Source: Spongospora subterranea f. sp. subterranea (Eukaryota). Taken from it: a stretch of 64,000 nt of DNA. Location of the stretch: contig JAUGWO010000070.1 of the NCBI GenBank assembly GCA_049724395.1, positions 1 through 64,000 of the forward strand, written 5' to 3'. The position numbers and the translations under genes were made by a program. Below the pieces are notes generated by a model that had not been told where the DNA came from, made no database searches, and worked only from the letters and a program-made list of their open reading frames with translations. Of this stretch, positions 10,396 to 32,894 are shown one piece after another; positions within the stretch are counted from its first letter, which is position 1; each line of letters opens with the position of its first letter.

Positions 10396-11833
10396 AGTAC
10401 ATCCCGTGCCAACAGATTCGCTGATTATAAATGAACATCAAGACTTGAACCATTATGGGACCCTTTTCCCTATAGAAACAACGGCTAGTGAATGGAATAA
10501 TAGCGGTATGATGACACCAGACAAATGTGACCTTTACATTGATCAGTACAAATTATCAAACAAAACAGACAGCTCAGCAACGCAAAATGTTAGAAATGAT
10601 AATTCCAAACAGCAATTTATGATAAAACCATCGCTAGACAAAACGATGAGACACGATAAAAACATAAATCCGAAAAGGCACCGATCATGCGACGATTCCG
10701 ACGACCAACCCACTCAACGTGCCAAATATGAAAAACATCAAACGCACTCTAAACAAATCTGCACAAAAAAGCGAACATTGCTGATAGATAAGGACGGCAC
10801 TGAAACGCAGTATAAAAGACGGCTTACCAACAGCGAGCGCCAATGCAAAGAAGTTGCAGACAATGAAACAGCGCGAAAAACAGCCTCAAAACAGACACCA
10901 ACAAGCCAGATGAGCCACTACGAACTCACCAAATTGATCGGAAATATACTAGAACCAGACAACAAGGAAGACAATATAGCAGACACATCGGACAAAAACC
11001 TGAACGGAACTAAAACACACAAACGGCAGATGAAAATAACTCAATATTTCATGAAAACCAATACCAAAACCAGAAAAATAAGAACAACCAGGAGCTTAAA
11101 AATCGCTCAATGGAACGCCTGCTCCCTAAGCGAACAAAAATCAAAAGAACTGTCTCGATTTGCTAACACCAACCGCGTCGATGTAATATGTATATCAGAA
11201 CTTCACCATAGACGCCAAGTAGACGATTTCCCAAACCACGAAGCCGATGACCGGTACACCCAAGCTGGAATTTTTTGGAGGGACCATGTAAATGTAGATG
11301 TGATGCGCATTCCTGCAATACAAACGTTTGGGAACCGACGGAATCATGACACAAATAGTAAAAATATATAGTGAAATGATATTAATTCACATATATATAC
11401 CACCGGATATAGATCGAAATACTAGAAAAGCATATTGGAAACAAATCGGCAAATTCGTAGAAATGCGAGATGAACCGATACTTCTAACAGGTGACCTCAA
11501 CACCAAAGATAGACGGTTTGGAATCCACCATGACGAAACTCACAAATACCTAGACAGCATATTGGAAGAATGCAAATTGATGAACAACCCGGAACGCCCA
11601 ACAAGAGGAAACAACTCATTAGATATCACCATTGCCAATCGACAGATGGCAAAGGAGATCTTACAATGGGACGTGCACGCAGAGCTAGGCAGTGACCATT
11701 CACCGACAACAATAGATACTACAATTAGAAGAAAATCGACGCAAAGGATTCCCCCTAGCCGTAAAAGAATACAACGAATTGACACACGAGCGACAACGAA
11801 AGCGTTAGAAGAGGAACTGCAGAAAGTTGAAAG
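10396..11833 (+). mobile_element. 5' fragment of a LINE (N-terminal region plus APE endonuclease)
   Basis: KIAQWNACS, ICISE, LTGDLN and GSDHSP APE motifs. Near-identical to the minus-strand LINE ending at 30718, with a few substitutions and 85 extra 5' nt. Confidence 0.9.
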
Positions 11834-12412
11834 CAAGAAGCTTTCGCGAATCTATTCATATCCTGAGCAACTAGCCAGCTCTTACGCCTGGACGAAACGA
11901 GCAAAGACGGTCGCCGTTTCAACGAGGGAACAGAGTCTTCAACGAGGGAACAGAGTCTCTGTTTTCGCCGCGTTCGATACAAAGGGATTTTTCTCTTGGA
12001 AATGCACCGAAGGGACGTTCACTCGCCAGAAGTTCCATGATGCTTTCCTGGAAATGGTTGGTTCCGAAGTTGAATCCGTCACAGCTTTTCCAAGGAGCAT
12101 TGTTATCTTAGATAATGCACAGATCCATATGTATGGGAATTGGAACAGGTCATACACAGATCAGGAGCGAAACTCATGTTCCTGCCTCCTTATTCGCCAC
12201 AGTTGAACCCTATTGAGCAAGGTTTTGCACTTTTAAAGCAGTGGCTCAAGAAACATGCTGATCTGACGTTCAGGGTTTGCCCTGAGGCTGTTCTAAAAGT
12301 GGCTATGCCAATGTGTACGAAGAATCTAAGACATATTGGTCATAAATTTTACAATTCCTGTGGGTACGGTCACACTGAGCTAAATAAATCAATGTTTGGG
12401 GTCTATCTTTAA
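11834..12412 (+). pseudogene. C-terminal half of an IS630/Tc1-like DDE transposase
   Basis: RGNRVSVFAA, PRSIVILDNAQIH and FLPPYSPQLNPIE motifs; one frameshift near 12140. Confidence 0.85.
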
Positions 12413-12808
12413 TTTTCATCATCCGATAGGACATGATCGACGTCGTTAAGGTCTTGTCCAACAACTGCCGGAACGGGTTCGTCGGAATGAAATATATCGT
12501 TTCCGAACAACGGATATGGTGGCAAACCCAGGGCGGATCGAAGGCTTGCGATATTCACCTCCACAGTGACAAGTTCAGTCCTATTGACCCGCAAGACGAT
12601 TTGGGCGAATTCGTCCGCATCCTGATTTTCAAGTGAACTTCTGAGGTAGTCCAATCGCATCGCCTGCCGGAATGTGTTGCTGGCCGGCAATTGCTCGACT
12701 GGTTCAGGATTGACAGCTCGCGCCCTGGTCCTCGACCAAATATTCGTCGCTATCTCGCCAATTACGGCTCGATCAGGAAGACTGGGAGGGTTTGCCTGGA
12801 TGTTGCCA

Positions 12809-12920
12809 GACGGACCCTGCCTATGGTCGCCCTTCGCAAACCAGAAGGGTTTGTTGATCCCGAAGACGGACCCTGCCTATGGTCGCCCTTCGCAAACCAG
12901 AAGGGTTTGTTGATCCCGAA
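12809..12920. repeat. 56-bp direct duplication
   Basis: GACGGACCCTGCCTATGG...GATCCCGAA at 12809 and 12865. Confidence 0.9.
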
Positions 12921-13233
12921 TTTCTTACAGACGCCTGTTCGGAAATAAAAACGACCAGTGGAATAAGAATTTGGCGACAATCGCTGACGAATCACTGATT
13001 GTGCATATACGCGTCGAACAGTCACGTCGAAATTGTCTTCAGAAAGGTCGATGAACCTGCTTTGGGGTGCTTGGACAGCAGGTTTGATTTCAGTTTGATT
13101 TCATCAGGAACACTCGACCTAGGAAGAGTGTGTTCGTAAGTGGCAAACAATGATGGCGTGCAGAACGCAAAATCCAAGTGACAGAGTCCATTGAATACTA
13201 TCAGTTTCTGCAGCAGCATGATGGTGCCGTCTG

Positions 13234-15324
13234 CAACAATCAAATCGATCTCAAAGAAGTAGCAAAGGACATTAAAACCAGATGCAAATTAATGAGAGGG
13301 CTACGAAAATATGGAATTCCAGTTTCGACCTTTCAAAAAATATGTCGAGGATTCATAGGCGGAAAACTCAATTACTACCTGCCATGGCTTGCAGCGGAAA
13401 TACACCAAACCATGAAGACCACTCTGAACCCGATGGAAATTGCATATAGAGACTATATGAGAACATTATACAGGATGTTTCCCATCGACACCAATCCCAT
13501 TATTACATGCGATATCACGATTCCCATTATTAAAGGATAGAATAATCACAGAGACAACAATGACAGTACTTTCAGCACAGGCAAATGGCACATTATTAGG
13601 AAGTGAATATGCTGCCTGGAATGGAGATGGCGATGGATGGACCCCATTAGGGGAGGTATGGAAAGCACTCAAAGAGAGAGTACCTGACACATATGATGCA
13701 GTTCATACTAGGACTGATATACCAGCACGAATATTGGAGGGATTATATAAGGTCAAATACCATTCCTCAAATAGGGAAAAAGCAATCAAAAAACACAAAA
13801 AAGGAAAGCTATTGCCGACAAACCCAGATATCGAACTATGGACAGATGGGAGTTTTAATAAGGATGTTGGCGGAGGAGCGGCAGCTCTGCTAATTGATTA
13901 TACAAATAGAGATGAAAAAGGCGAGACCAACGAAGAGATACTTACCGTTAAACTAGGAACAGAAGTGACATCATCATATGAATGTGAGATTATTGCACTG
14001 AATAGTGGACTAGATATAGCTGTAGACCAGAACTATGAGGGAAGACATATCCACATAATGACAGATTCCTTATCATGGATGAGTCAACTACAATCCTTAC
14101 CGATAAAACCAAGGAGAGTGAACGCTATCGTTGCGGAATGTGCAGATAAATTAGCGAAATTAACAAAAGAAAACATGGTGGATATACACTTTATACCAAA
14201 TCACGTGGAAAACGACAACAATAATGAAGACGAGATGAAAGTCCCCATAGGACACAGCGATGACATTGATCAACTAGCAAAGCAAGCATCGATGGACGGC
14301 GATGAAATTCAACATGACCCATTTATATCATCGTTCAAACTGCATCTTAAGAAAAGAGAGAGAGAAAACCTTAAAGATTACATCAAAGAACGAGTTCAAG
14401 CTAGCAGATTCAAAGGATACCCAGAAAGGGATAAATTTAAGATATTAATGACGCTAAACGAAAGGAAGATTGAACCTACAACCCCGCTTCTCAACAGAGC
14501 AAGAACTGGGCACTCTTGTGCAAGAAATCACCTGAAGAACCTGAATATGGATGACAGTAACATATGCAGATGGTGTAATACGGAAATAGAGACGATTGAA
14601 CATCAGGTGTTACACTGCAAGGCGTTACAAGGAAAGTTGAGTAAAGTCAGGAAAGTGTACAAAGGTTTGAACACCTCATCATTTGAAAATGCACTGTGGG
14701 AATACCCGCAAGAAATGAACAGGATCCTAAGAAGGGCAGTGAAAAAGAGGTGCTACATCTAGAACCACAGGAACCCGAATCCGAATACACGAGCAGAAAA
14801 TGCACTGTGGGAATACCCGCAAGAAATGAACAGGATCCTAAGAAGGGCAGACGGCGATCGAGACAGTGAGAGAGAGGAGGCAGCCTAGATAAATATTTTC
14901 CGAAGAGGAGTAAAACCTCGATAAAAAATCAGCTACCTAACCGTAGCGAAGAGGTGCTACCTCTCTAAATACAGGCCGAAGAGGAGGACAACCTCTATGC
15001 AAAAACCGAGCTGTCTAGTAAGGATGCGACCTGGTTAGGCCAAAGGGTGTTCCTTAGGGAATTTTTAGTGTCCCGGATACAGAGTTTTCCGGGTACGTTT
15101 TTTAGTTGGGACGGTTCAATATGTAGGACTATTCTAACCCCACACTACCCTTTGCGTCGACCAAAATGCTGAACTACCGGCGAAGGTCTATTTATCGGGT
15201 GCGAGCCTGATACTGGGAGGAGCTTCTGAGACGCGAGTCGAAGAAACGAATCTTGGCCCAATAGCCGTGGGACCGGCCGACCTGCATGAAAAGTGCAAAC
15301 TCAATCACAAAAAAAAAAAAAAAA
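13234..15324 (+). mobile_element. 3' part of the LINE (RNase H, C-terminal Zn finger, 3' UTR, poly-A); inverted duplicate of 25795-27890
   Basis: WTDGS RNase H motif, CRWC...HQVLHC, poly-A at 15309-15324 followed by the same flank (CACGAACTACTG) as the mirror copy. Confidence 0.92.
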
Positions 15325-16430
15325 CACGAACTACTGCTTTTGTCCGTTTGGGCTGATTCTTCATTGCTTTTTCATAAATGTCCTGCAATGGTAAAATCAA
15401 TTTGTTATTCTCTGGAATCGACCTATTCATCCATTGTATAGCCATCATGAATTGCTGCAAATCCCTAGCCGTTTTCGGATGTGGCATTTTATTGAGAGCC
15501 GATATCCTCCCTGGATCATGACTGACTCCATCTGGTGTGAAGATGCGGCCACAGAATTTGGCTTCCCTCAAGAACAAATCACATCGTTTAACATTGAACT
15601 TGATGTTTTTTTGTTCCGCCAATCTCAATGTCCCCTGCAGTGCTTCAAACCATTTGTCCTCAGTTTCCGCATGACCTAAAATATCGTCAATCCCGATGAT
15701 TAACGACTTGTACAGTAATTCCTCAAATATTTCATGCATCCTAGCCTGAGACTGAGTAGATGAAATCAATGCTCCTTAAATCGAACGTGTTGGAATGTAA
15801 ACTCCACGATCGGTCATGAATGAACTCATCTCCTGACACTCCTGGTCAAGTGGCATAATCCAAAATCCCTTGAACGCATCTAATGAAAACCAATACTTAG
15901 ACCCTGCTAAGTATCTAACAATGGATTCCAAGAATGGCATTGGCCATGCTGTGGCCTTGCATAATGCATTGACTTCCCTGAGATCAACACACATTCTGTA
16001 TCCTCGTTTCCCTGGTTTTCTGACAACTACCACCGGCGAAGCCCACTCCGCATTGTAGTTCTCATACACCAATCCATATTTGACCAACAACTTAACAAAA
16101 GTGTCAGAAATTCATTCTGTTCTGTGTTGTATCTCCTAGCTTTGCACCTGACTGGTTCCACATTATCCTTCAAGCATGTCTTGAAAGGTGTCACCTTAGC
16201 TGGTTCATCATTACCTAATGATGCCCTCCACACATTACCGTATGTATGGACCAATTTCCTTAGTCGACTTTCTCAATGATGTGGTAATCCATTTTGTATA
16301 GCGCGCTCAACCAAACCATTCATTGCACCTCGCAATTCCTCTGGAATATTTTCCCTAATATTCACATCCTCATCAGAAACTTCCAGATCCTAATTTCCCA
16401 ATCTTGTCCTCAAGATTAAATGCTCTAGGG
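15325..16430 (-). mobile_element. Gypsy pol (RT) fragment, mirror copy of 24690-25794
   Basis: WASPVVVVRK, YRMCVDLR, SLDAFKGFW and GIDDILG motifs. Confidence 0.9.
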
Positions 16431-16473
16431 CTGTTTTTCTAAACGGTGGCAAGGTGGCTGGCCGTCACGGACC

Positions 16474-16533
16474 ATACCAACTGAACGAGGCGTTAATATT
16501 ACAACGCCTCGTTGGTATATTGGTACTTGGTAT
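16474..16533 (+). promoter_or_regulatory. Rolling-circle replication origin: stem-loop with nonanucleotide TAATATTAC and flanking iterons
   Basis: AACGAGGCGT(16484-16493)-TAATATTAC(16494-16502)-A-ACGCCTCGTT(16504-16513). TTGGTAY at 16512, 16520 and 16527; inverted copy ATACCAA at 16474. Confidence 0.88.
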
Positions 16534-16773
16534 CCACGCAGTTTGTCCCAGAGGTACTGTACCAACGGACCGAACGCCTCGTCGGTATATAGGTACTTGG
16601 TATCCACGCAGTTTGTCACAGAGGTACCAACGGACCGATGGTGGGTACCATTTGACCGGCGGTACCAACCGACCGACGCGTGGGCCGCGCCGACTGTTAT
16701 GCGACGGACTGCGCGTCACACTGCGGCTATCATAATCGTTTTGGTGGTGGGCGTTTCGCGTCGTCGTTTGGAG

Positions 16774-16871
16774 ATGCCGAGAAGGAAAGGGCCGCCTTCA
16801 GCCACAACCGGCGTTACGGCGGAGCTCGGCAGGTTGGGCTCCGATTCGCAGAAGCGAACACGCGGCCGCCG
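16774..16871 (+). pseudogene. rep: Rep 5' fragment, variant A (MPRRKGPPSATTGVTAELGRLGSDSQKR)
   Basis: Homologous to the N-terminus of variants B and C and lies downstream of the intact origin. Further copies occur near 17060-17165(-), 18600-18935 and 23955-24345. Confidence 0.7.
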
Positions 16872-17400
16872 TCACAGAGGTACCAACGGACCGATGGTGG
16901 GTACCATCTGACCTGCGGTACCAACCGACCGGCGCGTCCCAAAACGATTATGATAGCCGCAGTGTGACGCGCAGTCCGTCACATAACAGTCAGCGCGGCC
17001 CGCGCCGATCGATTGGTACCGCCGGTCAGATGGTACCCACCATCGGTCCGTTGGTACCTCTGTGACGGCGGCCGCGTGTTCGCTTCTGCGAATCGGAGCC
17101 CAACCTGCCGAGCTCCGCCGTAACGCCGGTTGTGGCTGAAGGCGGCCCTTTCCTTCTCGGCATCTCCAAACGACGACGCGAAACGCAACGCCTCGTTGGT
17201 ACATTGGTACTTGGTATGCGGCCACGGAGTTGTCACAGAGGTACCAACGTACCAACTGACCGGTTCCGGGTACCAACCCACCGGGCTACCTACCGACAGG
17301 TGCGCAGCCCACACCGAGTCTTAAGTCACGGACTGCTCGTCACAACTTTCATTATCATATTGGTCGTGCCGTTATCGTTCGTATTCGTGCTGCTGCTGGG

Positions 17401-17835
17401 ATGCGACATAGGAAGGGGCAGGGTCCACGATCGGCGACCACAGGTGTCACAGCTGAGATCGCGCGGTTGGGGTCTGGCTCCCGCCAGCGGCGCGGCGCCA
17501 ACCGCCGACGCAAACCGCCAGCCGCCCCTCGATCCCGGTTCATTGATGACGAAGCCGGTTGCTCTTCGGAATCGACAGACGAAGCTACTCTATCGGAAGG
17601 CGGCAATGGAGTGGCATCGGGTACCGCCGATACGTTAAATGCCCCAGCAATCGCACCCGCCGATCCAGATACGTATATTCCGGCGGTTCTGTCGCCCGAG
17701 GATCAACTCACGCTCGAAGCGATGACCAGGCAGCCGACCCATGGGTTCGTATTCCGCGGCACCCATCTATTTGCAACATGGCCGCAGTGTACCACTCAAC
17801 CGTCGTAAGTACCAACCGACCGTACCCCAGGTACC
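17401..17835 (+). pseudogene. rep: Rep 5' fragment, variant B (exon 1 with motif I, and the start of the intron)
   Basis: 135-aa ORF ending GFVFRGTHLFATWPQCTTQPS, followed by a GTAAGT donor. Confidence 0.8.
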
Positions 17836-18381
17836 GTCACGATGATTCTCCTGTTTGACAACGGCTGCGCTCAACGTCATCGGGAAACAGTTTCCAAAGT
17901 TGGTCGATGACGAAACTGTGGCAACGAATTAGGGTCTCGCTCGGTTGGTACCTGGGGTACGGTCGGTTGGTACTTACGACGGTTGAGTGGTACACTGCGG
18001 CCATGTTGCAAATAGATGGGTGCCGCGGAATACGAACCCATGGGTCGGCTGCCTGGTCATCGCTTCGAGCGTGAGTTGATCCTCGGGCGACAGAACCGCC
18101 GGAATATACGTATCTGGATCGGCGGGTGCGATTGCTGGGGCATTTAACGTATCGGCGGTACCCGATGCCACTCCATTGCCGCCTTCCGATAGAGTAGCTT
18201 CGTCTGTCGATTCCGAAGAGCAACCGGCTTCGTCATCAATGAACCGGGATCGAGGGGCGGCTGGCGGTTTGCGTCGGCGGTTGGCGCCGCGCCGCTGGCG
18301 GGAGCCAGACCCCAACCGCGCGATCTCAGCTGTGACACCTGTGGTCGCCGATCGTGGACCCTGCCCCTTCCTATGTCGCAT
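17830..18381 (-). pseudogene. rep: Longest Rep fragment, variant B: exon 1, 62-nt intron (17977-17916), exon 2 up to ...ENHRDGT
   Basis: GTAAGT donor, CTAAT branch point (17932-17928) and CAG acceptor. Spliced product is LFATWPQCTTQPSFVIDQLWKLFPDDVE / (frameshift) AAVVKQENHRDGT, aligning with geminivirus Rep FLTYPQC...ELHEDGxPHLH. Confidence 0.82.
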
Positions 18382-19201
18382 CCCAGCAGCAGCACGAATA
18401 CGAACGATAACGGCACGACCAATATGATAATGAAAGTTGTGACGAGCAGTCCGTGACTTAAGACTCGGTGTGGGCTGCGCACCTGTCGGTAGGTAGCCCG
18501 GTGGGTTGGTACCCGGAACCGGTCAGTTGGTACGTTGGTACCTCTGTGACAACTCCGTGGCCGCATACCAAGTACCAATGTACCAACGAGGCGTTGTCGG
18601 CAGGTTGGGCTCCGATTCGCAGAAGCGAACACGCGGCCGCCGTCACAGAGGTACCAACGGACCGATGGTGGGTACCATCTGACCTGCGGTACCAACCGAC
18701 CGGCGCGTCCCAAAACGATTATGATAGCCGCAGTGTGACGCGTAGTCCGTCACATAACAGTCAGCGCGGCCCGCGCCGATCGATTGGTACCGCCGGTCAG
18801 ATGGTACCCACCATCGGTCCGTTGGTACCTCTGTGACGGCGGCCGCGTGTTCGCTTCTGCGAATCGGAGCCCAACCTGCCGAGCTCCGCCGTAACGCCGG
18901 TTGTGGCTGAAGGCGGCCCTTTCCTTCTCGGCATCTCCAAACGACGACGCGAAACGCCCAACGATTATGATAGCCGCAGTGTGACGCGCAGTCCGTCACA
19001 TAACAGTCGGCGCGGCCCACGCGTCGGTCGGTTGGTACCGCCGGTCAAATGGTACCCACCATCGGTCCGTTGGTACCTCTGTGACAAACTGCGTGGATAC
19101 CAAGTACCTATATACCGACGAGGCGTTCGGTCCGTTGGCACAGTACCTCTGGGACAAACTGCGTGGATACCATGTACCAATATACCAACGAGGCGTTGTA
19201 A

Positions 19202-19854
19202 GGTCCACCATCGGCGACAACAGGTGTGACCGAGGAGATCGCGCGGTTGGGGTCTGCCTCCCGCCAGCGCCGCCGTGGTAACCGCCGACGCAAACCGCCA
19301 GCCAAATGTCGATCCCGCTTCATTGACGACGAAGCCGGCTGCTCTTCCGATTCGGCAGACGACGCTACGATTTCGGACGCCGACAATGTTTTGGGATCGG
19401 GTACCGGCGAATCGCTAACTGCCCCTGTAATCGCACCCGCCGATCCAGATAAATATATTCCCGCGGTTCTGTCGCCCGAAGATCAACTGACGCTGGAAGC
19501 GATGACCAGGCAACCGGTCCATCATCGGGAAACAGTTTCCAGAGTTCGTCGATGACGAAACTGTGGCAACAAATTAGTGTACCGTTCGGTTGGTACCTTG
19601 GTAACGGTCGGTTGGTACTTTTTAAGCGAATCGGCGGTACCCGATGCCAATCCATTGTCGCCGTCCGATATAGTAGCGTCGTCTGCCGAATCGGAAGAGC
19701 AGCCGGCTTCGTCGTCAATGAAGCGGGATCGACATTTGGCTGGCGGTTTGCGTCGGCGGTTACCGCGGCGGCGCTGGCGGGAGGCAGACCCCAACCGCGC
19801 GATCTCCTCGGTCACACCTGTTGTCGCCGATGGTGGACCCTTTCTGCGTCGCAT
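19202..19854. pseudogene. rep: Rep 5' fragments, variant C, in two opposite orientations (19202-19520 +, 19523-19854 -); mirror copy at 23037-23370 +
   Basis: MRRRKGPPSATTGVTEEIARLGSASRQRRRGNRRRKPPAKCRSRFIDDEAGC..., plus a diverged copy of the intron 3' end and exon 2 (SFVIDELWKLFPDD). Confidence 0.75.
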
Positions 19855-19975
19855 CTCACCGGCGGCACGAACACAAACGACGACGGCACGACCAATATGA
19901 TTATGGAAGCTGTGACGAGCAGTCCGTGACATAAGACTTGGGGTGGGCCGCGCACCAGTGGGTTGGTACCCCGGT

Positions 19976-21575
19976 TGTTGAATACAACTTGCCAGCCTCC
20001 AGTACGGACATTCTCCAAGAAAGGTGCGTACCCCAGTCGGCGCAACCACGGCAAATGCATAACATAAGAGTGACTGTGCGGACTTTGTATTTGGATTATG
20101 CCGTGCACTCCCCCCTATATTCTCCCACCTATACATGCTATAACCACGCAGTAATAAACCTCATTCTACTATTACCTTCACATCGGAGACATCGATTTCC
20201 TTTAGATTAACAGTCGAATTGCCACCTCATCAGGCCCTTACGTATACACTTCAGTGTATCTTCTCACCACTGCACACATACACCTCAGTGTATATTTCTA
20301 CCAGCTTGTACATACACCTTAGTGTATCTTTTTCACCACTGCATACATACACCTCAGTGTATATTTCTACCAGTTCATACGTACACTTTAGTGTATATTT
20401 CTCGTTATTCCCACACTTTCTCTTCTCCGCACCTCTACTTCAACTTCAGTTGCGATGAAAGAAATTTTTCAGACGATTCCAAAGTTCTCCGGCAAAGACA
20501 CCGATGACCTGTTACTATGGCAACAAAAGGTAGTGATGTATCTATCGACAAAGGATCTGGAATTATGCGTTGAGAAAGACCCTGATGCTAACGCGACTCC
20601 GGACCAACTACGCAAAGACAAGAAAGCTAAGTCCATTTTATGCAGCTGCATTGATGACGTGATTGTCGGCGCAATAATGAAGGAAACAACGGCACGCAAG
20701 GCGTGGGCGCGCTTCTTGAAAGCCTTTACCGCAAGAAATCACGATCCACCAGAACCAGACTCATCGCCGAGTTTTGGAACTGCACAAAGAATGACGCCCC
20801 GATGGCCACTTACATTGCCACCCTTCAAGTTTTACAGTCAAAGCTCCGCGCTATCGGAAAGGATATGACAGATGAAGACATGACTGATCGCCTACTATCA
20901 GGCCTCCCATCTTGTTTTGACGCATTCACCGTCACGTTGGATACACTCAGCGAAGTCAAGTTTGCCGCTACTGCCGCGTCGCTCATCAATTTTGAAGCCC
21001 AACTCGAGCACAGGTCTCGTGAAGATGTCGGCAGTTTCCATCCTGCCTCGAGCATGCGCTACCTCAGTCAAACGGCATTCTCGCTGCAGCTATCACAACT
21101 CCAACTCGCATGACAATGCCCACTGCTGGGCACAACATCCCGAGCTACGTCCGAAACATTTATTCACTAAACAGTCTGCCTCAGTCTATCCCCTCCAACG
21201 ATCAAAAGTAGCTCCACTCTCCCAACAATCAGCTCATGAACACAGTGACGAATGGCTTCTTGACTGTTGCTGCTCAATGCACATGTGTCCGAATCCTCTA
21301 CCTTGCAGGAAGTTCTGCCCGACTCCGATCCCGTGACAGTTACTATGGCAAATAATGAGAGTCTTTGCTCAACTGCAACCGGCAGCAGCAAATGCAACCG
21401 GCAGCAGCAAAATAGGCACTGGAAATACCATCATCGATATTTCACCGGTATTACACATACCCGGTCTTTCCAATAATCTTCTCTCCATTGGACAAGCAAC
21501 TTCGGACGGACTATCGTTTTTGTTCAAGGGAGACTACTGCAAAATATTCAACATCGACGGTAAACTTGTCGGCAA
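19976..21575 (+). mobile_element. Copia element 2, 5' part (LTR, leader, gag, zinc knuckle, protease), truncated
   Basis: Candidate LTR TGTTG...TTAACA at 19976-20212 with AATAAA; tandemly repetitive leader ~20240-20400; gag from 20455, CSYHNSNSHDNAHC knuckle, WLLDCCCSMHM protease, LSNNLLSIGQ. Confidence 0.85.
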
Positions 21576-22915
21576 AGGTAGAGGATTCGGGACACATGTG
21601 CATTGAGCAGCAACAGTCAAGAAGCCATTCGTCACTGTGTTCATGAGCTGATTGTTGGGAGAGTGGAGCTACTTTTGATCGTTGGAGGGGATAGACTGAG
21701 GCAGACTGTTTAGTGAATAAATGTTTCGGACGTAGCTCGGGATGTTGTGCCCAGCAGTGGGCATTGTCATGCGAGTTGGAGTTGTGATAGCTGCAGCGAG
21801 AATGCCGTTTGACTGAGGTAGCGCATGCTCGAGGCAGGATGGAAACTGCCGACACTTCACGAGACCTGTGCTCGAGTTGGGCTTCAAAATTGATGAGCGA
21901 CGCGGCAGTAGCGGCAAACTTGACTTCGCTGAGTGTATCCAACGTGACGGTGAATGCGTCAAAACAAGATGGGAGGCCTGATAGTAGGCGATCAGTCATG
22001 TCTTCATCTGTCATATCCTTTCCGATAGCGCGGAGCTTTGACTGTAAAACTTGAAGGGTGGCAATGTAAGTGGCCATCGGGGCGTCATTCTTTGTGCAGT
22101 TCCAAAACTCGGCGATGAGTCTGGTTCTGGTGGATCGTGATTTCTTGCGGTAAAGGCTTTCAAGAAGCGCCCACGCCTTGTGTGCCGTTGTTTCCTTCAT
22201 TATTGCGCCGACAATCACGTCATCAATGCAGCTGCATAAAATGGACTTAGCTTTCTTGTCTTTGCGTAGTTGGTCCGGAGTCGCGTTAGCATCAGGGTCT
22301 TTCTCAACGCATAATTCCAGATCCTTTGTCGATAGATACATCACTACCTTTTGTTGCCATAGTAACAGGTCATCGGTGTCTTTGCCGGAGAACTTTGGAA
22401 TCGTCTGAAAAATTTCTTTCATCGCAACTGAAGTTGAAGTAGAGGTGCGGAGAAGAGAAAGTGTGGGAATAACGAGAAATGTACACTAAAGTGTACGTAT
22501 GAACTGGTAGAAAATATACACTGAGGTGTATGTATGCAGTGGTGAAAAAGATACACTAAGGTGTATGTACAAGCTGGTAGAAATATACACTGAGGTGTAT
22601 GTGTGCAGTGGTGAGAAGATACACTGAAGTGTATACGTAGGGGCCTGATGAGGTGGCAATTCGACTGTTAATCTAAAGGAAATCGATGTCTCCGATGTGA
22701 AGGTAATAGTAGAATGAGGTTTATTACTGCGTGGTTATAGCATGTATAGGTGGGAGAATAGTATAGGGGGGAGTGCACTAATAATCCAAATGACAAGCCG
22801 GTTGCTCTTCGCACAGTCACTCTTATGTTATGCATTTGCCGTGGTTGCGCCGACTGGGGGTACGCACCTTTCTTGGAGAATGTCCGTACTGGAGGCTGGC
22901 AAGTTGTATTCAACA
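21576..22915 (-). mobile_element. Fold-back (inverted) copy of Copia element 2
   Basis: Mirror of 19976-21304; gag ORF 21511-22422(-); LTR at 22666-22915. Confidence 0.88.
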
Positions 22916-23371
22916 ACCGGGGTACCAACCCACTGGTGCGCGGCCCACCCCAAGTCTTATGTCACGGACTGCTCGTCACAGCTTCCATAATCATATTGGT
23001 CGTGCCGTCGTCGTTTGTGTTCGTGCCGCCGGTGAGATGCGACGCAGAAAGGGTCCACCATCGGCGACAACAGGTGTGACCGAGGAGATCGCGCGGTTGG
23101 GGTCTGCCTCCCGCCAGCGCCGCCGCGGTAACCGCCGACGCAAACCGCCAGCCAAATGTCGATCCCGCTTCATTGACGACGAAGCCGGCTGCTCTTCCGA
23201 TTCGGCAGAGCGACGCTACTATATCGGACGGCGACAATGGATTGGATCGGGTACCGCCGATTCGCTTAAAAAGTACCAACCGACCGTTACCAAGGTACCA
23301 ACCGAACGGTACACTAATTTGTTGCCACAGTTTCGTCATCGACGAACTCTGGAAACTGTTTCCCGATGATG

Positions 23372-23712
23372 TGACCGGCTGCCTGGTCATCGCTTCGAGC
23401 GTCAGTTGATCCTCGGGCGACAGAACCGCCGGAATATACGTATCTGGATCGGCGGGTGCGATTGCTGGGGCATTTAACGATATCGGCGGTACCCGATGCC
23501 ACTCCATTGCCGGCGTCCGATAGAGTAGCGTCGTCTGTCGATTCCGAAGAGCAACCGGCTTCGTCATCAATGAACCGGGATCGAGGGGCGGCTGGCGGTT
23601 TGCGTCGGCGGTTGGCGCGGCGCCGCTGGCGGGAGCCAGACCCCAACCGCGCGATCTCAGCTGTGACACCTGTGGTCGCCGATCGTGGACCCTGCCCCTT
23701 CCTATGTCGCAT
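23372..23712 (-). pseudogene. rep: Rep 5' fragment, variant B, third copy (truncated before motif I)
   Basis: MRHRKGQGPRSATTG...FIDDEAGC...LEAMTRQP, with one frameshift. Confidence 0.72.
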
Positions 23713-24585
23713 CCCAGCAGCAGCACGAATACGAACGATAACGGCACGACCAATATGATAATGAAAGTTGTGACGAGCAGTCCGTGACTTAAGACTCGGT
23801 GTGGGCTGCGCACCTGATCGGTAGGTAGCCCGGTGGGCGGTACCCGGAACCGGTCAGTTGGCGTTGGTACCGCTGTGACAACTCCGTGGCCGACATACCA
23901 AGTCACAATGTACCATCGAATCGTTGCGTTGGGCGTTTCGCGTCGTCGTTTGGAGATGCCGAGAAGGAAAGGGCCGCCTTCAGCCACAACCGGCGTTACG
24001 GCGGAGCTCGGCAGGTTGGGCTCCGATTCGCAGAAGCGAACACGCGGCCGCCGTCACAGAGGTACCAACGGACCGATGGTGGGTACCATCTGACCGGCGG
24101 TACCAATCGATCGGCGCGGGCCGCGCTGACTGTTATGTGACGGACTACGCGTCACACTGCGGCTATCATAATCGTTTTGGGACGCGCCGGTCGGTTGGTA
24201 CCGCAGGTCAGATGGTACCCACCATCGGTCCGTTGGTACCTCTGTGACGGCGGCCGCGTGTTCGCTTCTGCGAATCGGAGCCCAACCTGCCGAGCTCCGC
24301 CGTAACGCCGGTTGTGGCTGAAGGCGGCCCTTTCCTTCTCGGCATCTCCAAACGACGACGCGAAACGCCCACCACCAAAACGATTATGATAGCCGCAGTG
24401 TGACGCGCAGTCCGTCGCATAACAGTCGGCGCGGCCCACGCGTCGGTCGGTTGGTACCGCCGGTCAAATGGTACCCACCATCGGTCCGTTGGTACCTCTG
24501 TGACAAACTGCGTGGATACCAAGTACCTATATACCGACGAGGCGTTCGGTCCGTTGGTACAGTACCTCTGGGACAAACTGCGTGG

Positions 24586-24645
24586 ATACCAAGTACCAAT
24601 ATACCAACGAGGCGTTGTAATATTAACGCCTCGTTCAGTTGGTAT
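24586..24645 (-). promoter_or_regulatory. Second (mirror) copy of the TAATATTAC origin hairpin
   Basis: Stem-loop at 24606-24635; nonamer on the minus strand at 24625-24617. Confidence 0.88.
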
Positions 24646-24689
24646 GGTCCGTGACGGCCAGCCACCTTGCCACCGTTTAGAAAAACAGC

Positions 24690-27600
24690 CCTAGAGCATT
24701 TAATCTTGAGGACAAGATTGGGAAATTAGGATCTGGAAGTTTCTGATGAGGATGTGAATATTAGGGAAAATATTCCAGAGGAATTGCGAGGTGCAATGAA
24801 TGGTTTGGTTGAGCGCGCTATACAAAATGGATTACCACATCATTGAGAAAGTCGACTAAGGAAATTGGTCCATACATACGGTAATGTGTGGAGGGCATCA
24901 TTAGGTAATGATGAACCAGCTAAGGTGACACCTTTCAAGACATGCTTGAAGGATAATGTGGAACCAGTCAGGTGCAAAGCTAGGAGATACAACACAGAAC
25001 AGAATGAATTTCTGACACTTTTGTTAAGTTGTTGGTCAAATATGGATTGGTGTATGAGAACTACAATGCGGAGTGGGCTTCGCCGGTGGTAGTTGTCAGA
25101 AAACCAGGGAAACGAGGATACAGAATGTGTGTTGATCTCAGGGAAGTCAATGCATTATGCAAGGCCACAGCATGGCCAATGCCATTCTTGGAATCCATTG
25201 TTAGATACTTAGCAGGGTCTAAGTATTGGTTTTCATTAGATGCGTTCAAGGGATTTTGGATTATGCCACTTGACCAGGAGTGTCAGGAGATGAGTTCATT
25301 CATGACCGATCGTGGAGTTTACATTCCAACACGTTCGATTTAAGGAGCATTGATTTCATCTACTCAGTCTCAGGCTAGGATGCATGAAATATTTGAGGAA
25401 TTACTGTACAAGTCGTTAATCATCGGGATTGACGATATTTTAGGTCATGCGGAAACTGAGGACAAATGGTTTGAAGCACTGCAGGGGACATTGAGATTGG
25501 CGGAACAAAAAAACATCAAGTTCAATGTTAAACGATGTGATTTGTTCTTGAGGGAAGCCAAATTCTGTGGCCGCATCTTCACACCAGATGGAGTCAGTCA
25601 TGATCCAGGGAGGATATCGGCTCTCAATAAAATGCCACATCCGAAAACGGCTAGGGATTTGCAGCAATTCATGATGGCTATACAATGGATGAATAGGTCG
25701 ATTCCAGAGAATAACAAATTGATTTTACCATTGCAGGACATTTATGAAAAAGCAATGAAGAATCAGCCCAAACGGACAAAAGCAGTAGTTCGTGTTTTTT
25801 TTTTTTTTTGTGATTGAGTTTGCACTTTTCATGCAGGTCGGCCGGTCCCACGGCTATTGGGCCAAGATTCGTTTCTTCGACTCGCGTCTCAGAAGCTCCT
25901 CCCAGTATCAGGCTCGCACCCGATAAATAGACCTTCGCCGGTAGTTCAGCATTTTGGTCGACGCAAAGGGTAGTGTGGGGTTAGAATAGTCCTACATATT
26001 CCGTCCCAACTAAAAAACGTACCCGGAAAACTCTGTATCCGGGACACTAAAAATTCCCTAAGGAACACCCTTTGGCCTAACCAGGTCGCATCCTTACTAG
26101 ACAGCTCGGTTTTTGCATAGAGGTTGTCCATGTATTCCTTCCTCTTCGGCCTGTATTTAGAGAGGTAGCACCTCTTCGCTACGGTTAGGTAGCTGATTTT
26201 TTATCGAGGTTTTACTCCTCTTCGGAAAATATTTATCTAGGCTGCCTCCTCTCTCTCACTGTCTCGATCGCCGTCTGCCCTTCTTAGGATCCTGTTCATT
26301 TCTTGCGGGTATTCCCACAGTGCATTTTCTGCTCGTGTATTCGGATTCGGGTTCCTGTGGTTCTAGATGTAGCACCTCTTTTTCACTGCCCTTCTTAGGA
26401 TCCTGTTCATTTCTTGCGGGTATTCCCACAGTGCATTTTCAAATGATGAGGTGTTCAAACCTTTGTACACTTTCCTGACTTTACTCAACTTTCCTTGTAA
26501 CGCCTTGCAGTGTAACACCTGATGTTCAATCGTCTCTATTTCCGTATTACACCATCTGCATATGTTACTGTCATCCATATTCAGGTTCTTCAGGTGATTT
26601 CTTGCACAAGAGTGCCCAGTTCTTGCTCTGTTGAGAAGCGGGGTTGTAGGTTCAATCTTCCTTTCGTTTAGCGTCATTAATATCTTAAATTTATCCCTTT
26701 CTGGGTATCCTTTGAATCTGCTAGCTTGAACTCGTTCTTTGATGTAATCTTTAAGGTTTTCTCTCTCTCTTTTCTTAAGATGCAGTTTGAACGATGATAT
26801 AAATGGGTCATGTTGAATTTCATCGCCGTCCATCGATGCTTGCTTTGCTAGTTGATCAATGTCATCGCTGTGTCCTATGGGGACTTTCATCTCGTCTTCA
26901 TTATTGTTGTCGTTTTCCACGTGATTTGGTATAAAGTGTATATCCACCATGTTTTCTTTTGTTAATTTCGCTAATTTATCTGCACATTCCGCAACGATAG
27001 CGTTCACTCTCCTTGGTTTTATCGGTAAGGATTGTAGTTGACTCATCCATGATAAGGAATCTGTCATTATGTGGATATGTCTTCCCTCATAGTTCTGGTC
27101 TACAGCTATATCTAGTCCACTATTCAGTGCAATAATCTCACATTCATATGATGATGTCACTTCTGTTCCTAGTTTAACGGTAAGTATCTCTTCGTTGGTC
27201 TCGCCTTTTTCATCTCTATTTGTATAATCAATTAGCAGAGCTGCCGCTCCTCCGCCAACATCCTTATTAAAACTCCCATCTGTCCATAGTTCGATATCTG
27301 GGTTTGTCGGCAATAGCTTTCCTTTTTTGTGTTTTTTGATTGCTTTTTCCCTATTTGAGGAATGGTATTTGACCTTATATAATCCCTCCAATATTCGTGC
27401 TGGTATATCAGTCCTAGTATGAACTGCATCATATGTGTCAGGTACTCTCTCTTTGAGTGCTTTCCATACCTCCCCTAATGGGGTCCATCCATCGCCATCT
27501 CCATTCCAGGCAGCATATTCACTTCCTAATAATGTGCCATTTGCCTGTGCTGAAAGTACTGTCATTGTTGTCTCTGTGATTATTCTATCCTTTAATAATG

Positions 27601-30600
27601 GGAATCGTGATATCGCATGTAATAATGGGATTGGTGTCGATGGGAAACATCCTGTATATGTTCTCATATAGTCTCTATATGCAATTTCCATCGGGTTCAG
27701 AGTGGTCTTCATGGTTTGGTGTATTTCCGCTGCAAGCCATGGCAGGTAGTAATTGAGTTTTCCGCCTATGAATCCTCGACATATTTTTTGAAAGGTCGAA
27801 ACTGGAATTCCATATTTTCGTAGCCCTCTCATTAATTTGCATCTGGTTTTAATGTCCTTTGCTACTTCTTTGAGATCGATTTGATTGTTGAGTGGTGATT
27901 CTCATCATTTGCTCTTAAGGTTGCCCCTAAATACTTGATTGTGTCTGTTGTTTTGATTTTATGCTCGTTGACAGTTATTTGGTCTCTATGAGCATGTTCA
28001 TTGAATAATAAGTGGGTTTTCAGCCATTGTATCTTAATGTGGTTTGCTGTGCACCAGCTTTGCAGCTTTGAACTCTCTGCCCTCAGTTGATTTTTTACTT
28101 CCCATTTGGTTGAATCTGTTGCCCATTGTGTGGTATCATCTACATAAACATTACTATTGACCGTTTCTATTGGTGCATCGTAGATATATATAATCCATAA
28201 TAAGACGCTAATACTGGATCCTTGAGGGATTCCGTTCTCTTGATAATGCGGCTCTGTAATATTTTTCCTGTGGCACACGTGGAATATTCGCTTTGTCAAC
28301 CATTGGTCGATCAATAATATTAGGTATGAGTCTATTCCCATATTTCTCATCTTTCGTACTAGTAGTGTTCTCTGTACTCTGTCAAAGGCTTTCATAAAGT
28401 CATATACAATTAGGGCGAATTGTTGTTCTTTAGCAGCTGCTAATCCTGCATTATGCAGCAATCTTAACAATGCATGCGTAGTACTATGAGCGGGTCTGCA
28501 CCCGAATTGGTTATCAGGTATGTGCTTTTCCGCTTGGTGTCTTATTCTGTGTTCAATAATCCCTTCTACCAGTTTGGCTATATTAGGCAATAATGATATC
28601 GGTCTATATTCACCTGGTTTATCTTTAGGTAATGGTCTGATTTTCGCTATTTTCATATCTTGTGGGAAGTATCCTAAATCTATAATATCGTTATTAATTG
28701 AATTCAGCAACGCGTATTTGTTCATATCATTTTTGCATAATTCTTTGATGAGACTATTCGGTATTCCATCAATTCCTCCTGCTGATTTCCTATTGGCCTT
28801 AACAACTGCCCTTTCTAGCTCTCTCAAAGTAATCTTTTCCGGTGGTTGAGAGATTCTCTCTTTCCATAGTTTTTCAATGAGTAGATCGGAACCGCTGTTC
28901 ACGCTGTTCATGCTCATTGAGGTTAAGGTCTGCTTCGCTGTAGATTGCCTCAAAACTGTCAGCTATTTTTTCCGCTTCATCTTTTGCATCAACTTTCTGT
29001 GTTTCGTACTTTCGTCTCCGTTTGTTGGTTTGAGGACTTATCTTCTTTACCAGGCTCCATATTTTGGCTCCTGTTTCGTCCATACATGCCTGTTTAACTT
29101 CCGTTCTAAGGCTTGCATTTTTCGCTTTCTGAAATTGTTTCCTCAATGATATTTCCGCTTTTCGCATTTCGGTGTGCTGCCGTGCAATAAATTGCTGGCT
29201 TTTGCATTTCAGTATGGCTTCCTGGTGTTTGCGCTTGAGTTTATTTCGCAAGTTTAACGCAATTTTGAGTTTCGTGGTCCAGAATTTGCATCTATTCTGT
29301 CTAACATATTTGTGCTTAATGCTATTTTGCAATAGGTCAATGAAAGCTGTTAGTCCCATGTTCTTGCTTTCAACATTCTGCAGTTCCTCTTCTAACGCTT
29401 TCGTTGTCGCTCGTGTGTCAATTCGTTGTATTCTTTTACGGCTAGGGGGAATCCTTTGCGTCGATTTTCTTCTAATTGTAGTATCTATTGTTGTCGGTGA
29501 ATGGTCACTGCCTAGCTCTGCGTGCACGTCCCATTGTAAGATCTCCTTTGCCATCTGTCGATTGGCAATGGTGATATCTAATGAGTTGTTTCCTCTTGTT
29601 GGGCGTTCCGGGTTGTTCATCAATTTGCATTCTTCCAATATGCTGTCTAGGTATTTGTGAGTTTCGTCATGGTGGATTCCAAACCGTCTATCTTTGGTGT
29701 TGAGGTCACCTGTTAGAAGTATCGGTTCATCTCGCATTTCTACGAATTTGCCGATTTGTTTCCAATATGTTTTTCTAGTATTTCGATCTATATCCGGTGG
29801 TATATATATGTGAATTAATATCATTTCACTATATATTTTTACTATTTGTGTCATGATTCCGTCGTTCCCAAACGTTTGTATTGCAGGAATGCGCATCACA
29901 TCTACATTTACATGGTCCCTCCAAAAAATTCCAGCTTGGGTGTACCGGTCATCGGCTTCGTGGTTTGGGAAATCGTCTATTTGGCGTCTATGGTGAAGTT
30001 CTGATATACATATTACATCGACGCGGTTGGTGTTAGCAAATCGAGACAGTTCTTTTGATTTTTGTTCGCTTAGGGAGCAGGCGTTCCATTGAGCGATTTT
30101 TAAGCTCCTGGTTGTTCTTATTTTTCTGGTTTTGGTATTGGTTTTCATGAAATATTGAGTTATTTTCATCTGCCGTTTGTGTGTTTTAGTTCCGTTCAGG
30201 TTTTTGTCCGATGTGTCTGCTATATTGTCTTCCTTGTTGTCTGGTTCTAGTATATTTCCGATCAATTTGTTGAGTTCGTAGTGGCTCATCTGGCTTGTTG
30301 GTGTCTGTTTTGAGGCTGTTTTTCGCGCTGTTTCATTGTCTGCAACTTCTTTGCATTGGCGCTCGCTGTTGGTAAGCCGTCTTTTATACTGCGTTTCAGT
30401 GCCGTCCTTATCTATCAGCAATGTTCGCTTTTTTGTGCAGATTTGTTTAGAGTGCGTTTGATGTTTTTCATATTTGGCACGTTGAGTGGGTTGGTCGTCG
30501 GAATCGTCGCATGATCGGTGCCTTTTCGGATTTATGTTTTTATCGTGTCTCATCGTTTTGTCTAGCGATGGTTTTATCATAAATTGCTGTTTGGAATTAT

Positions 30601-32894
30601 CATTTCTAACATTTTGCGTTGCTGAGCTGTCTGTTTTGTTTGATAATTTGTACTGATCAATGTAAAGGTCACATTTGTCTGGTGTCATCATACCGCTATT
30701 ATTCCATTCACTAGCCGTCAGTAGTTCGTGGTGTGATATTAAACCGACATGGATGGGAAGACATTCATATCGATGCTTTTAAAAACATTAAAGGCGCAAC
30801 TGCTAGGAAAACGCAGCTGAGTTATCCAATGAAGGATAAGGTTCAATGTGTATTCACTGATGCCAGTGAATTTCATGCCTCAGGGATGGTCACTCAAATT
30901 CCTATTGGGGATATTGGGAAACCGAATGAACAGGGACACGAACCGTTGGGATTTGTAGGACATAGGTTCAATGGATCTGAACTGAATTGGTCTACACCGG
31001 ATAAGGAAGACTTTGCAATATGGGACACGTTGAAGAATTTGGATTACTTACTTCAAATTGGAGACACTCCATTCAGGATATACACAGATCATAAAAAATC
31101 TGGCGGCCATGTATAGTCCAACTACCTAGGTGCACCAAACAGGCTGGGCAACGTCTGGAGCGGTGGGGAATGGAGATCAGGAAGTTCAACTATACGGTTG
31201 AACACATAGCTGGTGAGCAAACGTCTGGGCAGACTTAATGACCAGATGGGGATCGTCAATTATGGATGATTTGATGCTTGATCAGGAAATTACCCCAAAC
31301 CAAAGGAGAAATGGGATCAGGGTTAATCGCATTGGAATGGAACCGGGATCGAATGAGGAGTCGATTAATGTTAGCCAATATAGGGTCAGGCCAATGGATG
31401 AGCGAACGTTTGTGTTCCCTAATGAACAGGAAATAGGCACAGAACAAACGAATAAGCTAAGGAAAAGGAACAGGAAAACCTTAGACAAACTAACGGATTG
31501 TTTGTGAATGATCAGGGACAGATTGTTATTCCGTCTGGTAGTCGGGATTTAAGGTTAAGGATATGTGTTATTGCACATATGGGTGCACGTAATGGTCATA
31601 ATGGAATCAATTCGACGGCACAATTGATTAAGGAACGGTTTTACTGGACCAATATGATCGAGGACGTGAGAACTATCTGCAAGGAATGCTTGCATTGCGT
31701 TCCCAGCAGAGGTGGTGAGCAGGTGCCACGACCACTAGGAGAAGCATGTCATGGATGCAGACCTAATCAAGTATTACACTTTGATTACCTGTATATGATG
31801 CCGCTTAAGGAGGGTGCATATCATGATTTCCAATGGCTATTAGTAATCAGGGATGATGTGTCAGGATTGGTGCATATGACGCCTGTCAATACACCAGACA
31901 CAGATGCGACAGTGGATGCTCTCATGGAATGGAGATCCAAATTTGGGACTCCAGAGGTGTTGTCTCGGATCAGGCATCATACTTTATGTCGGAAATCATG
32001 AGGGGATTTGCAGCAAAATGTGGTGTGGAACAGCATTGGACTACTGCCTACACACATTACCCGAATGGATCCATCGAGGTAATCAACAAACTGATATTAT
32101 CTGCATTCAGGTGTGTTATATCAGAGTTGAGATGGAATAAGGAAGATTGGCCATTGCTGATCAAGGCGATTGAGCATGGGCTTAATCATAAACCACAGAA
32201 ACGGTTGGGTTGGAGAGCGCCAGTTACGGTTCATACTGGAGCCAAGGCAGATAATCCAGTGGAACTAATATTTAAGAAACCTGGGACAGGTGTGGAACAC
32301 ATCAATGATATATCATTGAATAGTGGGCAAATAGGGATCATGGTAGAGCAATTGCAGGTCAACTAGCTCAAATGCATAAGGAAGTGCTGGGAGTGACAAA
32401 TTCTGAGAGGCATCAGAAGAGGAATAAGGCATCAACTGGAAGATTGAAACCTAATTTCGGGATTGGCGATTATGTATTAACCAGTCCTAATGTCACAAAA
32501 TCAGGCGATAAACTATATTTGAAATGGAAGGGACCATATCAGATTATAGAATCAAAAAAAGGATACGTATTCAAGGTTAGGAACCTGATTACGGATACGC
32601 ATAAGGTTTTATGCAGATTAAGACCTTAACGTCACGGAAGAGATGACAACTCAGTTTTCATTTGACAATGCAACATTTGAGGCAGAAAGGATTCTGAAAA
32701 TCAGATTGGATCAGGAAACCCAGCAATTACAAGGATTTGTTAAATGGCTAGGATTTTCTGAGTCGGAGAACTCATGGGAACCACTGATTACCCTCAAGAA
32801 TGATGCACCAACATTAATAACGGAATCTATTCAGGAAAATAGGGATCATTCGTTGTTTGCTCCTCGAGGACGACACTCAGTAAGTCAATATTGA
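24690..32894 (+). mobile_element. Gypsy/chromovirus pol remnant (RT, RNase H, integrase, chromodomain), split by a LINE
   Basis: RT 25029-25794; RNase H VFTDAS/YTDHK 30733-31116; integrase zinc finger H..H..C..C and core 31498-32366; KWKGPY; chromodomain VKWLGFSESENSWEP. No LTRs identified. Confidence 0.9.
25795..30718 (-). mobile_element. 5'-truncated LINE encoding APE-RT-RNase H-Zn finger, with poly-A tail and 12-bp TSD
   Basis: TSD CAGTAGTTCGTG at 25783-25794 and 30719-30730; poly-T 25795-25809. ORF pieces 28874-30691 (APE), 27862-28953 (RT: YRPISLL, GIPQGS, YVDD) and 26363-27832 (RNase H), joined by frameshifts. Confidence 0.95.

What the first reader, a model, noticed from the sequence alone, without database searches (positions are those of the whole stretch)
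16774..19854. At least three diverged Rep lineages interleaved at one locus
Variants A (MPRRKGPPSATTGVTAELGRLG), B (MRHRKGQGPRSATTGVTAEIARLG) and C (MRRRKGPPSATTGVTEEIARLG) differ at many positions yet share leaders and motifs; two C copies also differ (DADNVLGSG vs DGDNGLASG). Local duplication alone cannot produce this. Inference: related viruses or elements integrated repeatedly at the same site, or a recombinant defective concatemer integrated. Only origin-proximal 5' parts are retained.
Basis: partly seen in the sequence, partly recalled or inferred. Interest (0 to 1): 0.7.

Follow-up and report, generated by a model that had tools for sequence, protein, structure and literature searches.

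The report
Folded-back remnants of several DNA viruses
A 3.5 kb patch among transposons holds folded-back start pieces of three or more diverged versions of a small circular DNA virus replication gene, several broken at the virus's predicted cut site and at least one found spliced in RNA data; it was likely captured from one multiply infected cell of a protist and could make virus-silencing hairpin RNA.

Summary
Observation confirmed, interpretation mostly supported and extended. 16441-19975 is a GC-rich mosaic between a gypsy fragment and a copia LTR. It holds one intact TAATATTAC stem-loop and 5' pieces of a CRESS-DNA Rep: variant B matches a Spongospora subterranea Gemini_AL1-like Rep (E 4e-9). 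A differs from B/C by 36-38% with third-position excess, B from C by 13-16%, while duplicate copies are 99-100% identical, so divergence predates the duplications. Short-read contigs of two DNA studies carry B, C1, C2 and most internal joins: not consensus error. New here: four fragment ends lie within 2 nt of the nick site; the Rep gene has a 62-nt GT-AG intron just after motif I, seen spliced in an RNA contig that runs from C2 into antisense C1; C1/C2 are mosaics; one run holds a fourth variant. Best reading: snap-back and nick-ended defective molecules from co-infecting viruses were joined and captured together (0.55); serial capture at resident origins is the rival (0.25). Host junctions are not bridged by short reads; the mirror copy at 21575-27890 is probably an assembly artefact. 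No free virus found.

The parts
16484..16513 (+). Origin stem-loop: 11-bp stem, nonanucleotide TAATATTAC at 16494-16502, predicted nick between 16500 and 16501; the only intact origin outside the mirror arm
   Evidence: z -6.3, 0 of 200 shuffles; nick position from recalled geminivirus/circovirus biochemistry, backed by breakpoint clustering
16441..16483 (+). Presumed viral sequence left of the origin (inverted iteron-like word); edge against the gypsy fragment uncertain, somewhere in 16375-16483
   Evidence: gypsy similarity ends at 16374
16501..16773 (+). Intergenic region of variant A with iteron-like TTGGTA and GGTACC repeats; restarts at nick+2 at 16573 (second copy 89% alike)
16774..16870 (+). 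Rep variant A, first ~33 codons, then jump back into intergenic sequence (16871-16938)
16939..17186 (-). Fold-back arm of the A hairpin (64-nt loop); ends joined to the nick end of B
   Evidence: join 17186 inside X1 contig 17157-17389
17186..17835 (+). Variant B arm 1: nick+1, intergenic region, exon 1 (17401-17804, ending just after motif I), first 31 nt of intron
   Evidence: (X2 contig, 650 nt, 0 differences)
17827..18596 (-). Variant B arm 2, the longest contiguous viral piece: nick, intergenic region, exon 1 (18381-17978), 62-nt GT-AG intron (17977-17916), exon 2 up to the edge of motif II, then fold-back; one frame break near 17867 not shared by X1/X2 contigs
   Evidence: tblastn with P0121 E 6e-18 across the intron
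18597..19201 (.). Second A block (hairpin plus intergenic region), ending within 2 nt of the nick at 19201
   Evidence: joins 18596/7 in X2, 18957/60 in X1, 19201/2 in X1 and X2
19202..19521 (+). Variant C1: Rep exon 1 from codon ~5 to just before motif I
   Evidence: X1, X2 contigs
19522..19975 (-). Variant C2: part of intergenic region (19975-19855), internally deleted exon 1 (19854-19621), intron (19618-19561 removed in the X3 contig), start of exon 2 (19560-19522)
19976..20208 (+). 5' LTR of a high-copy copia element abutting the viral block; gag follows from 20455
15308..16374 (-). Decayed gypsy pol (RT) fragment cut by the viral block
   Evidence: CpG o/e 0.59
21575..27890 (-). Mirror copy of 13234-21304 with a collapsed viral part (22914-24679); probably an assembly artefact

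Best explanation
The locus is a mosaic of folded-back 5' pieces of a CRESS-DNA Rep gene with its origin, from at least three diverged versions, likely joined as defective replication products in one co-infected nucleus and captured together in a transposon-rich stretch of a protist chromosome. Shown: origin hairpin, Rep homology, intron, divergence with codon bias, breakpoints at the predicted nick, internal joins in independent DNA runs, one spliced RNA contig. Inferred steps: (1) related viruses sharing the origin stem replicated in one nucleus and recombined (mosaic C1/C2); (2) Rep nicking left linear molecules ending at TAATATT/AC, and synthesis folded back at iteron-like GGTACC words to give snap-back molecules; (3) these ends were ligated with 0-1 nt homology, as in end joining, and inserted into a gypsy remnant; (4) a copia element later landed at the right edge; (5) a retained viral promoter drives an RNA through C2 into antisense C1, which would fold into about 200 bp of double-stranded RNA.
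For: Rep identity. Divergence before duplication: A vs B/C 62-64% with pS ~0.8 against 650/650, 360/361, 239/242 identity among duplicates. Four ends within 2 nt of the nick (chance 1e-3 to 2e-4 counting only 3 as independent). No host DNA between variants. No decay: CpG o/e 1.3 vs 0.59 in the adjacent gypsy. Mosaic C1/C2: 0 of 1000 permutations. Same internal joins in DNA runs of 2018 and 2025 at similar contig depths within each run. Spliced contig in X3, and an X9 poly(A) contig ending at the acceptor. 206 long-range pairs predicted.
Against: No capsid, helicase or free virus found, so a virus rather than a resident rolling-circle element is inferred from the origin and Rep family. Nick-end joins fit serial capture too. 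Related sequence lies elsewhere in the runs (variant D, loose ends), so ectopic templates were available. X3 is RNA only by guess; contigs cannot show strand or a single transcript. Host lineage is not shown.
Confidence: 0.55

Rival explanations
1. Serial capture at a resident origin: an integrated origin is nicked by the Rep of later infections, and the break captures DNA of the new virus, so A, B and C arrived at different times.
For: The C block sits exactly at a nick end of A (19201/2) and B's nick ends sit against A. A and B share the right arm of the stem, so one Rep could act on both. X1 and X2 differ in variant content (D in X1 only), so the family is still polymorphic.
Against: Clean Rep strand transfer should rebuild whole origins at joins; only one intact origin exists. 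No variant looks older (open frames, CpG o/e 1.3). Needs repeated rare events at one place.
Confidence: 0.25
2. The variants are subfamilies of a resident rolling-circle element or of older integrations dispersed in the host genome, and this locus was stitched from them by template switching during break repair.
For: Spliceosomal intron in the gene; an expressed homologue is annotated in a plasmodiophorid; further related pieces in X1 and X2; transposon-rich surroundings.
Against: Nick-site ends need Rep activity on an origin; virus-type nonanucleotide and iteron-like repeats; no other copy within the window outside the mirror; no Helitron-size Rep/helicase; purifying selection between variants fits free replicons.
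Confidence: 0.15
3. The mosaic is an artefact of amplification, fold-back reads or consensus mixing.
For: The surrounding giant mirror shows such symptoms: 0 substitutions but 5 indels in 3.2 kb, and 5 of 5 Rep-region substitutions in its B copy equal C1 alleles.
Against: The left-arm variants and joins occur in short-read contigs from separate studies and years; random chimeras would not recur; codon-position bias.
Confidence: 0.05

Closest known systems
Geminivirus-related DNA (GRD2/3/5/53) of Nicotiana; yam EGV1/EGV2 (PMC5014472, passages seen)
   Same: Integrated clusters of a truncated rep plus an intergenic fragment with a virion-strand origin; more than one viral lineage per genome; purifying selection between lineages.
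   Different: GRD and EGV are described as direct tandem repeats of degenerate begomovirus-like DNA in plants. Here the copies are inverted fold-backs, undecayed, three or more lineages are spliced into 3.5 kb, Rep lies on the nonanucleotide strand, and the host is likely a protist.
5' snapback genomes of adeno-associated virus (PMC8235507, abstract and Results read)
   Same: Self-complementary molecules holding the origin end, the Rep promoter and a partial rep; proposed to give double-stranded RNA that lowers Rep.
   Different: AAV is a linear parvovirus with ITRs; those molecules are packaged, from one virus. Here they are from a circular-type origin, several variants, and apparently fixed in a chromosome.
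Spongospora subterranea Gemini_AL1-like protein P0121 (UniRef100_A0A0H5QYU1)
   Same: 45-46% identity over 66 aa around motif I; similarity resumes after the intron up to DGTW; acidic N-terminal extension.
   Different: P0121 goes on through motif II- and III-like words; its genomic context is unknown; it is a separate, more distant member.
Draupnirvirus-like endogenous Rep sequences in Polymyxa betae (PMC10193959, passages and one supplement row seen)
   Same: CRESS-virus EVEs in a plasmodiophorid genome; so such EVEs in this host group are already in print.
   Different: Those are assigned to Draupnirviridae; the homologue here scores best with Gemini_AL1. No direct sequence comparison was possible.

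Membership tests
Cressdnaviricota-derived endogenous element | HUH Rep with RCR motif I | tested here: met
   FVFRGTHLFATWPQC aligns to P0121, which hits Gemini_AL1 E 2.5e-4, PDB Rep chains weakly (E 0.06-0.8) and Cressdnaviricota clusters by features and structure. B alone has no Pfam hit.
Cressdnaviricota-derived endogenous element | Motifs II, III and SF3 helicase | tested here: not met
   The longest piece stops at DGTW, the edge of motif II. Motif II- and III-like words are read by eye only in homologue P0121. Truncation, not evidence against origin.
Cressdnaviricota-derived endogenous element | Stem-loop with nonanucleotide origin | tested here: met
   breakpoints cluster at the predicted nick
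Cressdnaviricota-derived endogenous element | Covalent joins to host chromosome | tested here: inconclusive
Same internal joins in two DNA studies argue for inheritance.
Cressdnaviricota-derived endogenous element | Capsid gene / circular genome | tested here: not met
   None recognised in the window; no free relative found.
Geminiviridae / Genomoviridae | Nonanucleotide TAATATTAC | tested here: met
Geminiviridae / Genomoviridae | Rep on the complementary strand (recalled) | tested here: not met
   Rep starts ~216 nt downstream of the nick on the nonanucleotide strand; breakpoints fit the + strand nick, not the one-mismatch - strand word.
Geminiviridae / Genomoviridae | Gemini_AL1 domain above the Pfam cut-off; GRS motif | tested here: inconclusive
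   P0121 scores 21.4 bits against a cut-off of 24; the GRS region is not in the window.
Geminiviridae / Genomoviridae | Rep intron, where present, after motif III (recalled) | tested here: not met
   The intron here lies between motifs I and II. Known position is from memory; passages confirm only that spliced Rep transcripts exist in some genera.
Draupnirviridae | Rep phylogeny inside the family | not testable with these tools
   No reference Rep set could be fetched.
Helitron | Large Rep-PIF1 helicase protein; 5' TC and 3' CTRR ends (recalled) | tested here: not met
   No such ORF at the locus; ends were not scored formally.

The most novel reading that the evidence does not exclude
An integrated viral origin works as a trap: the Rep of each new related infection nicks it, the break takes up the newcomer's origin-proximal DNA in folded-back form, and the locus is transcribed into spliced hairpin RNA, giving a protist a heritable, self-updating RNAi memory of a virus family that has not yet been isolated.
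Probability: 0.1. Interest if true: 0.88.

Novelty: new variant of a known kind. Interest (0 to 1): 0.52.

Why it matters
It records an apparently undescribed CRESS-DNA lineage (gemini-like Rep on the virion strand, long N-terminal extension, intron between motifs I and II) that likely infects plasmodiophorid-like protists, a group living inside crop roots and relevant to where geminivirus-like replicons come from. It also preserves, base by base, how such viruses enter genomes: ends at the Rep nick site, snap-back folds and joins between co-infecting variants. Because one fold is found in a spliced RNA contig, the question whether endogenous ssDNA-virus pieces make silencing RNA becomes directly testable here.

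Tried and rejected
Whole genome not held, so no search for other loci. Homologue searches with B: word-index search, longer proteins, 0 of 1096 candidates; Atlas no usable hit; viral and metagenome contigs none confirmed. With P0121 or the alignment: only itself among 310 candidates; viral contigs none; plasmids and phages none. DNA patterns: origin 0 hits in viral contigs; 8 metagenome hits, 0 of 8 with hairpin or Rep; intron-acceptor pattern 5 hits, 0 of 5 with Rep. P0122 rejected as a chance match. My first reading of 17836-17975 and 19522-19620 as a Rep C-terminal fragment was dropped. Nick on the minus strand rejected (breakpoints do not fit). X5 and X6 gave identical figures and are counted once, and as unspliced. 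Holes in cover (19840-19975; B-type 17915-17946 in X1) prove nothing. No joint was seen at the mirror centre near 21575, but copia depth there is in the thousands, so this is inconclusive. Earlier scan findings: none. Bejarano 1996 not held. Whether the host has Dicer/Argonaute was not established (listing only).

Full report
Observation. The three peptides and the two C strings are at the stated places. They lie in a 59% GC block, 16441-19975, between a decayed gypsy RT fragment on the left and a copia LTR starting at 19976. The rest of the window holds eukaryotic genes (TPR-Hsp70, ARPC2, a GlcNAc transferase, Sec1, a helicase) and many retroelements. No whole genome is held. The host lineage is not shown: the ARPC2 search gave no close named relative. 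A plasmodiophorid-like protist is inferred from the nearest Rep homologue and from rhizosphere runs among the holders.

It is a Rep. B alone has no Pfam hit, but an exhaustive search returned 2 proteins, one real: P0121, E 3.7e-9, 46% identity, named by its sources as a Spongospora subterranea geminivirus-AL1-domain protein. It hits Gemini_AL1 at 21.4 bits, below the cut-off of 24, solved Rep domains weakly, and Cressdnaviricota clusters by features and predicted structure. An 11-bp stem with TAATATTAC lies at 16484-16513 (0 of 200 shuffles fold as well). The Rep start is about 216 nt downstream of the predicted nick on the same strand, unlike geminiviruses and genomoviruses (recalled). GGTACC occurs 30 times in 3536 nt of the block and once in 58697 nt elsewhere (the copies are not independent).

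The gene has an intron. A contig of run X3 skips 19561-19618, ends GT..AG on the minus strand, and a contig of poly(A) run X9 stops at 19560. tblastn of P0121 aligns with 18273-17827 across a 20-codon insert and resumes with VIDQLW...AVVKQENHRDGTW. So 18596 to 17827 on the minus strand is one natural piece: nick, intergenic region, exon 1, a 62-nt intron with a branch-point-like CTAAT, and exon 2 to the edge of motif II, where it folds back at a GGTACC word shared with the intron (about 9 nt of homology, inferred from DGTW in P0121). One frame break near 17867 is not shared by X1 or X2 contigs and is probably an assembly error. In C2 the natural donor is deleted and a neighbouring GT is used.

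The variants are real and old; the array is young. A vs B and C: 62-64% identity over 28-33 codons, third-position excess p 2e-4 to 2e-3, pS about 0.8; B vs C1 84%, dN/dS 0.43; B vs C2 87% with weaker support; C1 vs C2 96% without significant bias. Intergenic regions: A-B 70%, B-C2 84%; introns 87%. Duplicates are 650/650, 360/361 and 239/242 identical. CpG o/e is 1.3 in the block against 0.59 in the gypsy. C2 sides with C1 at 22 of 23 informative sites up to 17583 (B numbering) and with B at 8 of 12 after; 0 of 1000 permutations match this. I laid 6 of the 24 listed runs on two sub-stretches. DNA runs X1 (2018) and X2 (2025) both hold the C1-exon 2-intron-C2 fold in one 364-nt contig and the 19201/2 join; the 17186 join and 18957/60 join are seen in X1 only, the 18596/7 join in X2 only. 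X1 may be the assembly's source; X2 is another study. X1 also holds a fourth variant (9 differences in 140 nt and 13 in 168 nt against B) absent from the window and from X2's listed differences; its place is unknown. Loose ends in both runs, one at the nick end 17186, point to further related pieces elsewhere.

Breakpoints. Read along the minus strand the block alternates sense and antisense passes: C2 sense, C1 antisense, A from the nick, A hairpin, B from the nick, B back to the nick, A hairpin, A back through the origin. Four ends lie within 2 nt of the nick: 19201, 18596, 17186 and the restart at 16573 (the script's comparison for 18596 was one base off, read by eye as one shared letter). 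Counting 3 of 18 ends as independent, chance is 1e-3 to 2e-4. At the seven joins where both parents or a sister variant are in the window, 0-1 letters are shared. No host DNA lies between variants.

Mechanism. Most likely (0.55): co-infecting relatives that share the origin stem produced nick-ended and snap-back molecules, recombined, were ligated by end joining and were captured together. Rival (0.25): resident origins were nicked again by later infections and captured new DNA; the C block at an A nick end fits this, but whole origins are not rebuilt and no variant looks older. Rival (0.15): stitching from dispersed genomic copies. Artefact (0.05). The spliced X3 contig runs from C2 into antisense C1; the read-through is predicted to form 206 long-range pairs. 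X3 is RNA by guess, contigs cannot show a single transcript, and small RNAs were not examined.

Against or open. No capsid, helicase or free virus was found in any search. The mirror 21575-27890 has 0 substitutions and 5 indels over 3.2 kb of flank, lacks the B fold and C1, and its B copy carries C1 alleles at 5 of 5 Rep-region substitutions; X1 contig depths (about 66 for single joins, 143 for the A intergenic variant, 252 for the A start) fit the left arm alone, though depth is no true copy number. I treat it as a probable artefact.

Known systems. Nicotiana GRD and yam EGV are origin-plus-truncated-rep clusters in direct repeats (PMC5014472, passages). Endogenous Rep sequences are widespread in eukaryotes including protists (PMC3198968, passages). 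Draupnirvirus-like EVEs are reported in Polymyxa betae (PMC10193959, passages and one supplement row of several). AAV 5' snapback genomes hold promoter and partial rep and are proposed to act through double-stranded RNA (PMC8235507, abstract and Results). Spliced Rep transcripts occur in some geminivirus genera (PMC13696870, passages). Ten searches of the held library (listings and abstract starts only, except the papers named) showed no report of a gemini-like EVE in Spongospora or Plasmodiophora or of this fold-back, multi-variant layout; subscription papers and unseen supplements may hold one. The scan's own notes had nothing.

Verdict. A real, young, multi-variant endogenous CRESS element: a new variant of a known kind, with an unusual Rep architecture, nick-site breakpoints and a testable hairpin transcript. 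Interest 0.52.

Noticed in passing
window 13234-21304 vs 21575-27890: Giant inverted duplication centred inside a copia element; indel-only differences in the flanks and a chimeric viral part suggest a fold-back assembly artefact. The right side continues naturally as gypsy with a LINE inserted (26363-30718) and resumes gypsy RNase H at 30715.
   Followed up: partly
window 19976-21575: Copia element of very high copy: contig depth about 1e4 inside and up to 1e5 in the LTR against about 66 at single joins in X1; also present in RNA contigs. A 34/69-bp tandem repeat lies in its leader (20244-20403).
   Followed up: no
window 17916-17977 and 19561-19620: The Rep intron carries the same GTACCAAC iteron-like words as the intergenic region (14-nt exact match to 16662-16675); it may be a Rep-binding or autoregulatory site, or derive from origin DNA.
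   Followed up: no
window 16826-17186 vs 18597-19201: The two A hairpins have their 64-nt loop in opposite orientation relative to their flanks (flip/flop); short reads cannot tell whether this is real.
   Followed up: partly
window 16871-17066 and 19370-19416 / 19625-19672: Arms of the A and C hairpins are identical far from the loop and differ close to it, as if the switch went to a sister molecule or the outer arms were later homogenised.
   Followed up: partly
window 45369-47579: Open frame fusing N-terminal TPR repeats to a full Hsp70 domain.
   Followed up: no
window 48924-53082, 37391-39316, 55714-57191: Tandem arrays: 50-bp unit x ~82 with strong strand skew, 87-bp unit array, and 55/56-bp arrays in inverted orientation.
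   Followed up: no
window 10388-13234: LINE 5' part from a second copy (4 substitutions in 1359 nt against the right-hand LINE) cut by a DDE_3 transposase fragment before the mirror's left end.
   Followed up: no
runs X1 and X2, laid on window 17043-17186: Loose ends show related intergenic sequence and another nick-end join that are not in the window: further loci of this family.
   Followed up: no
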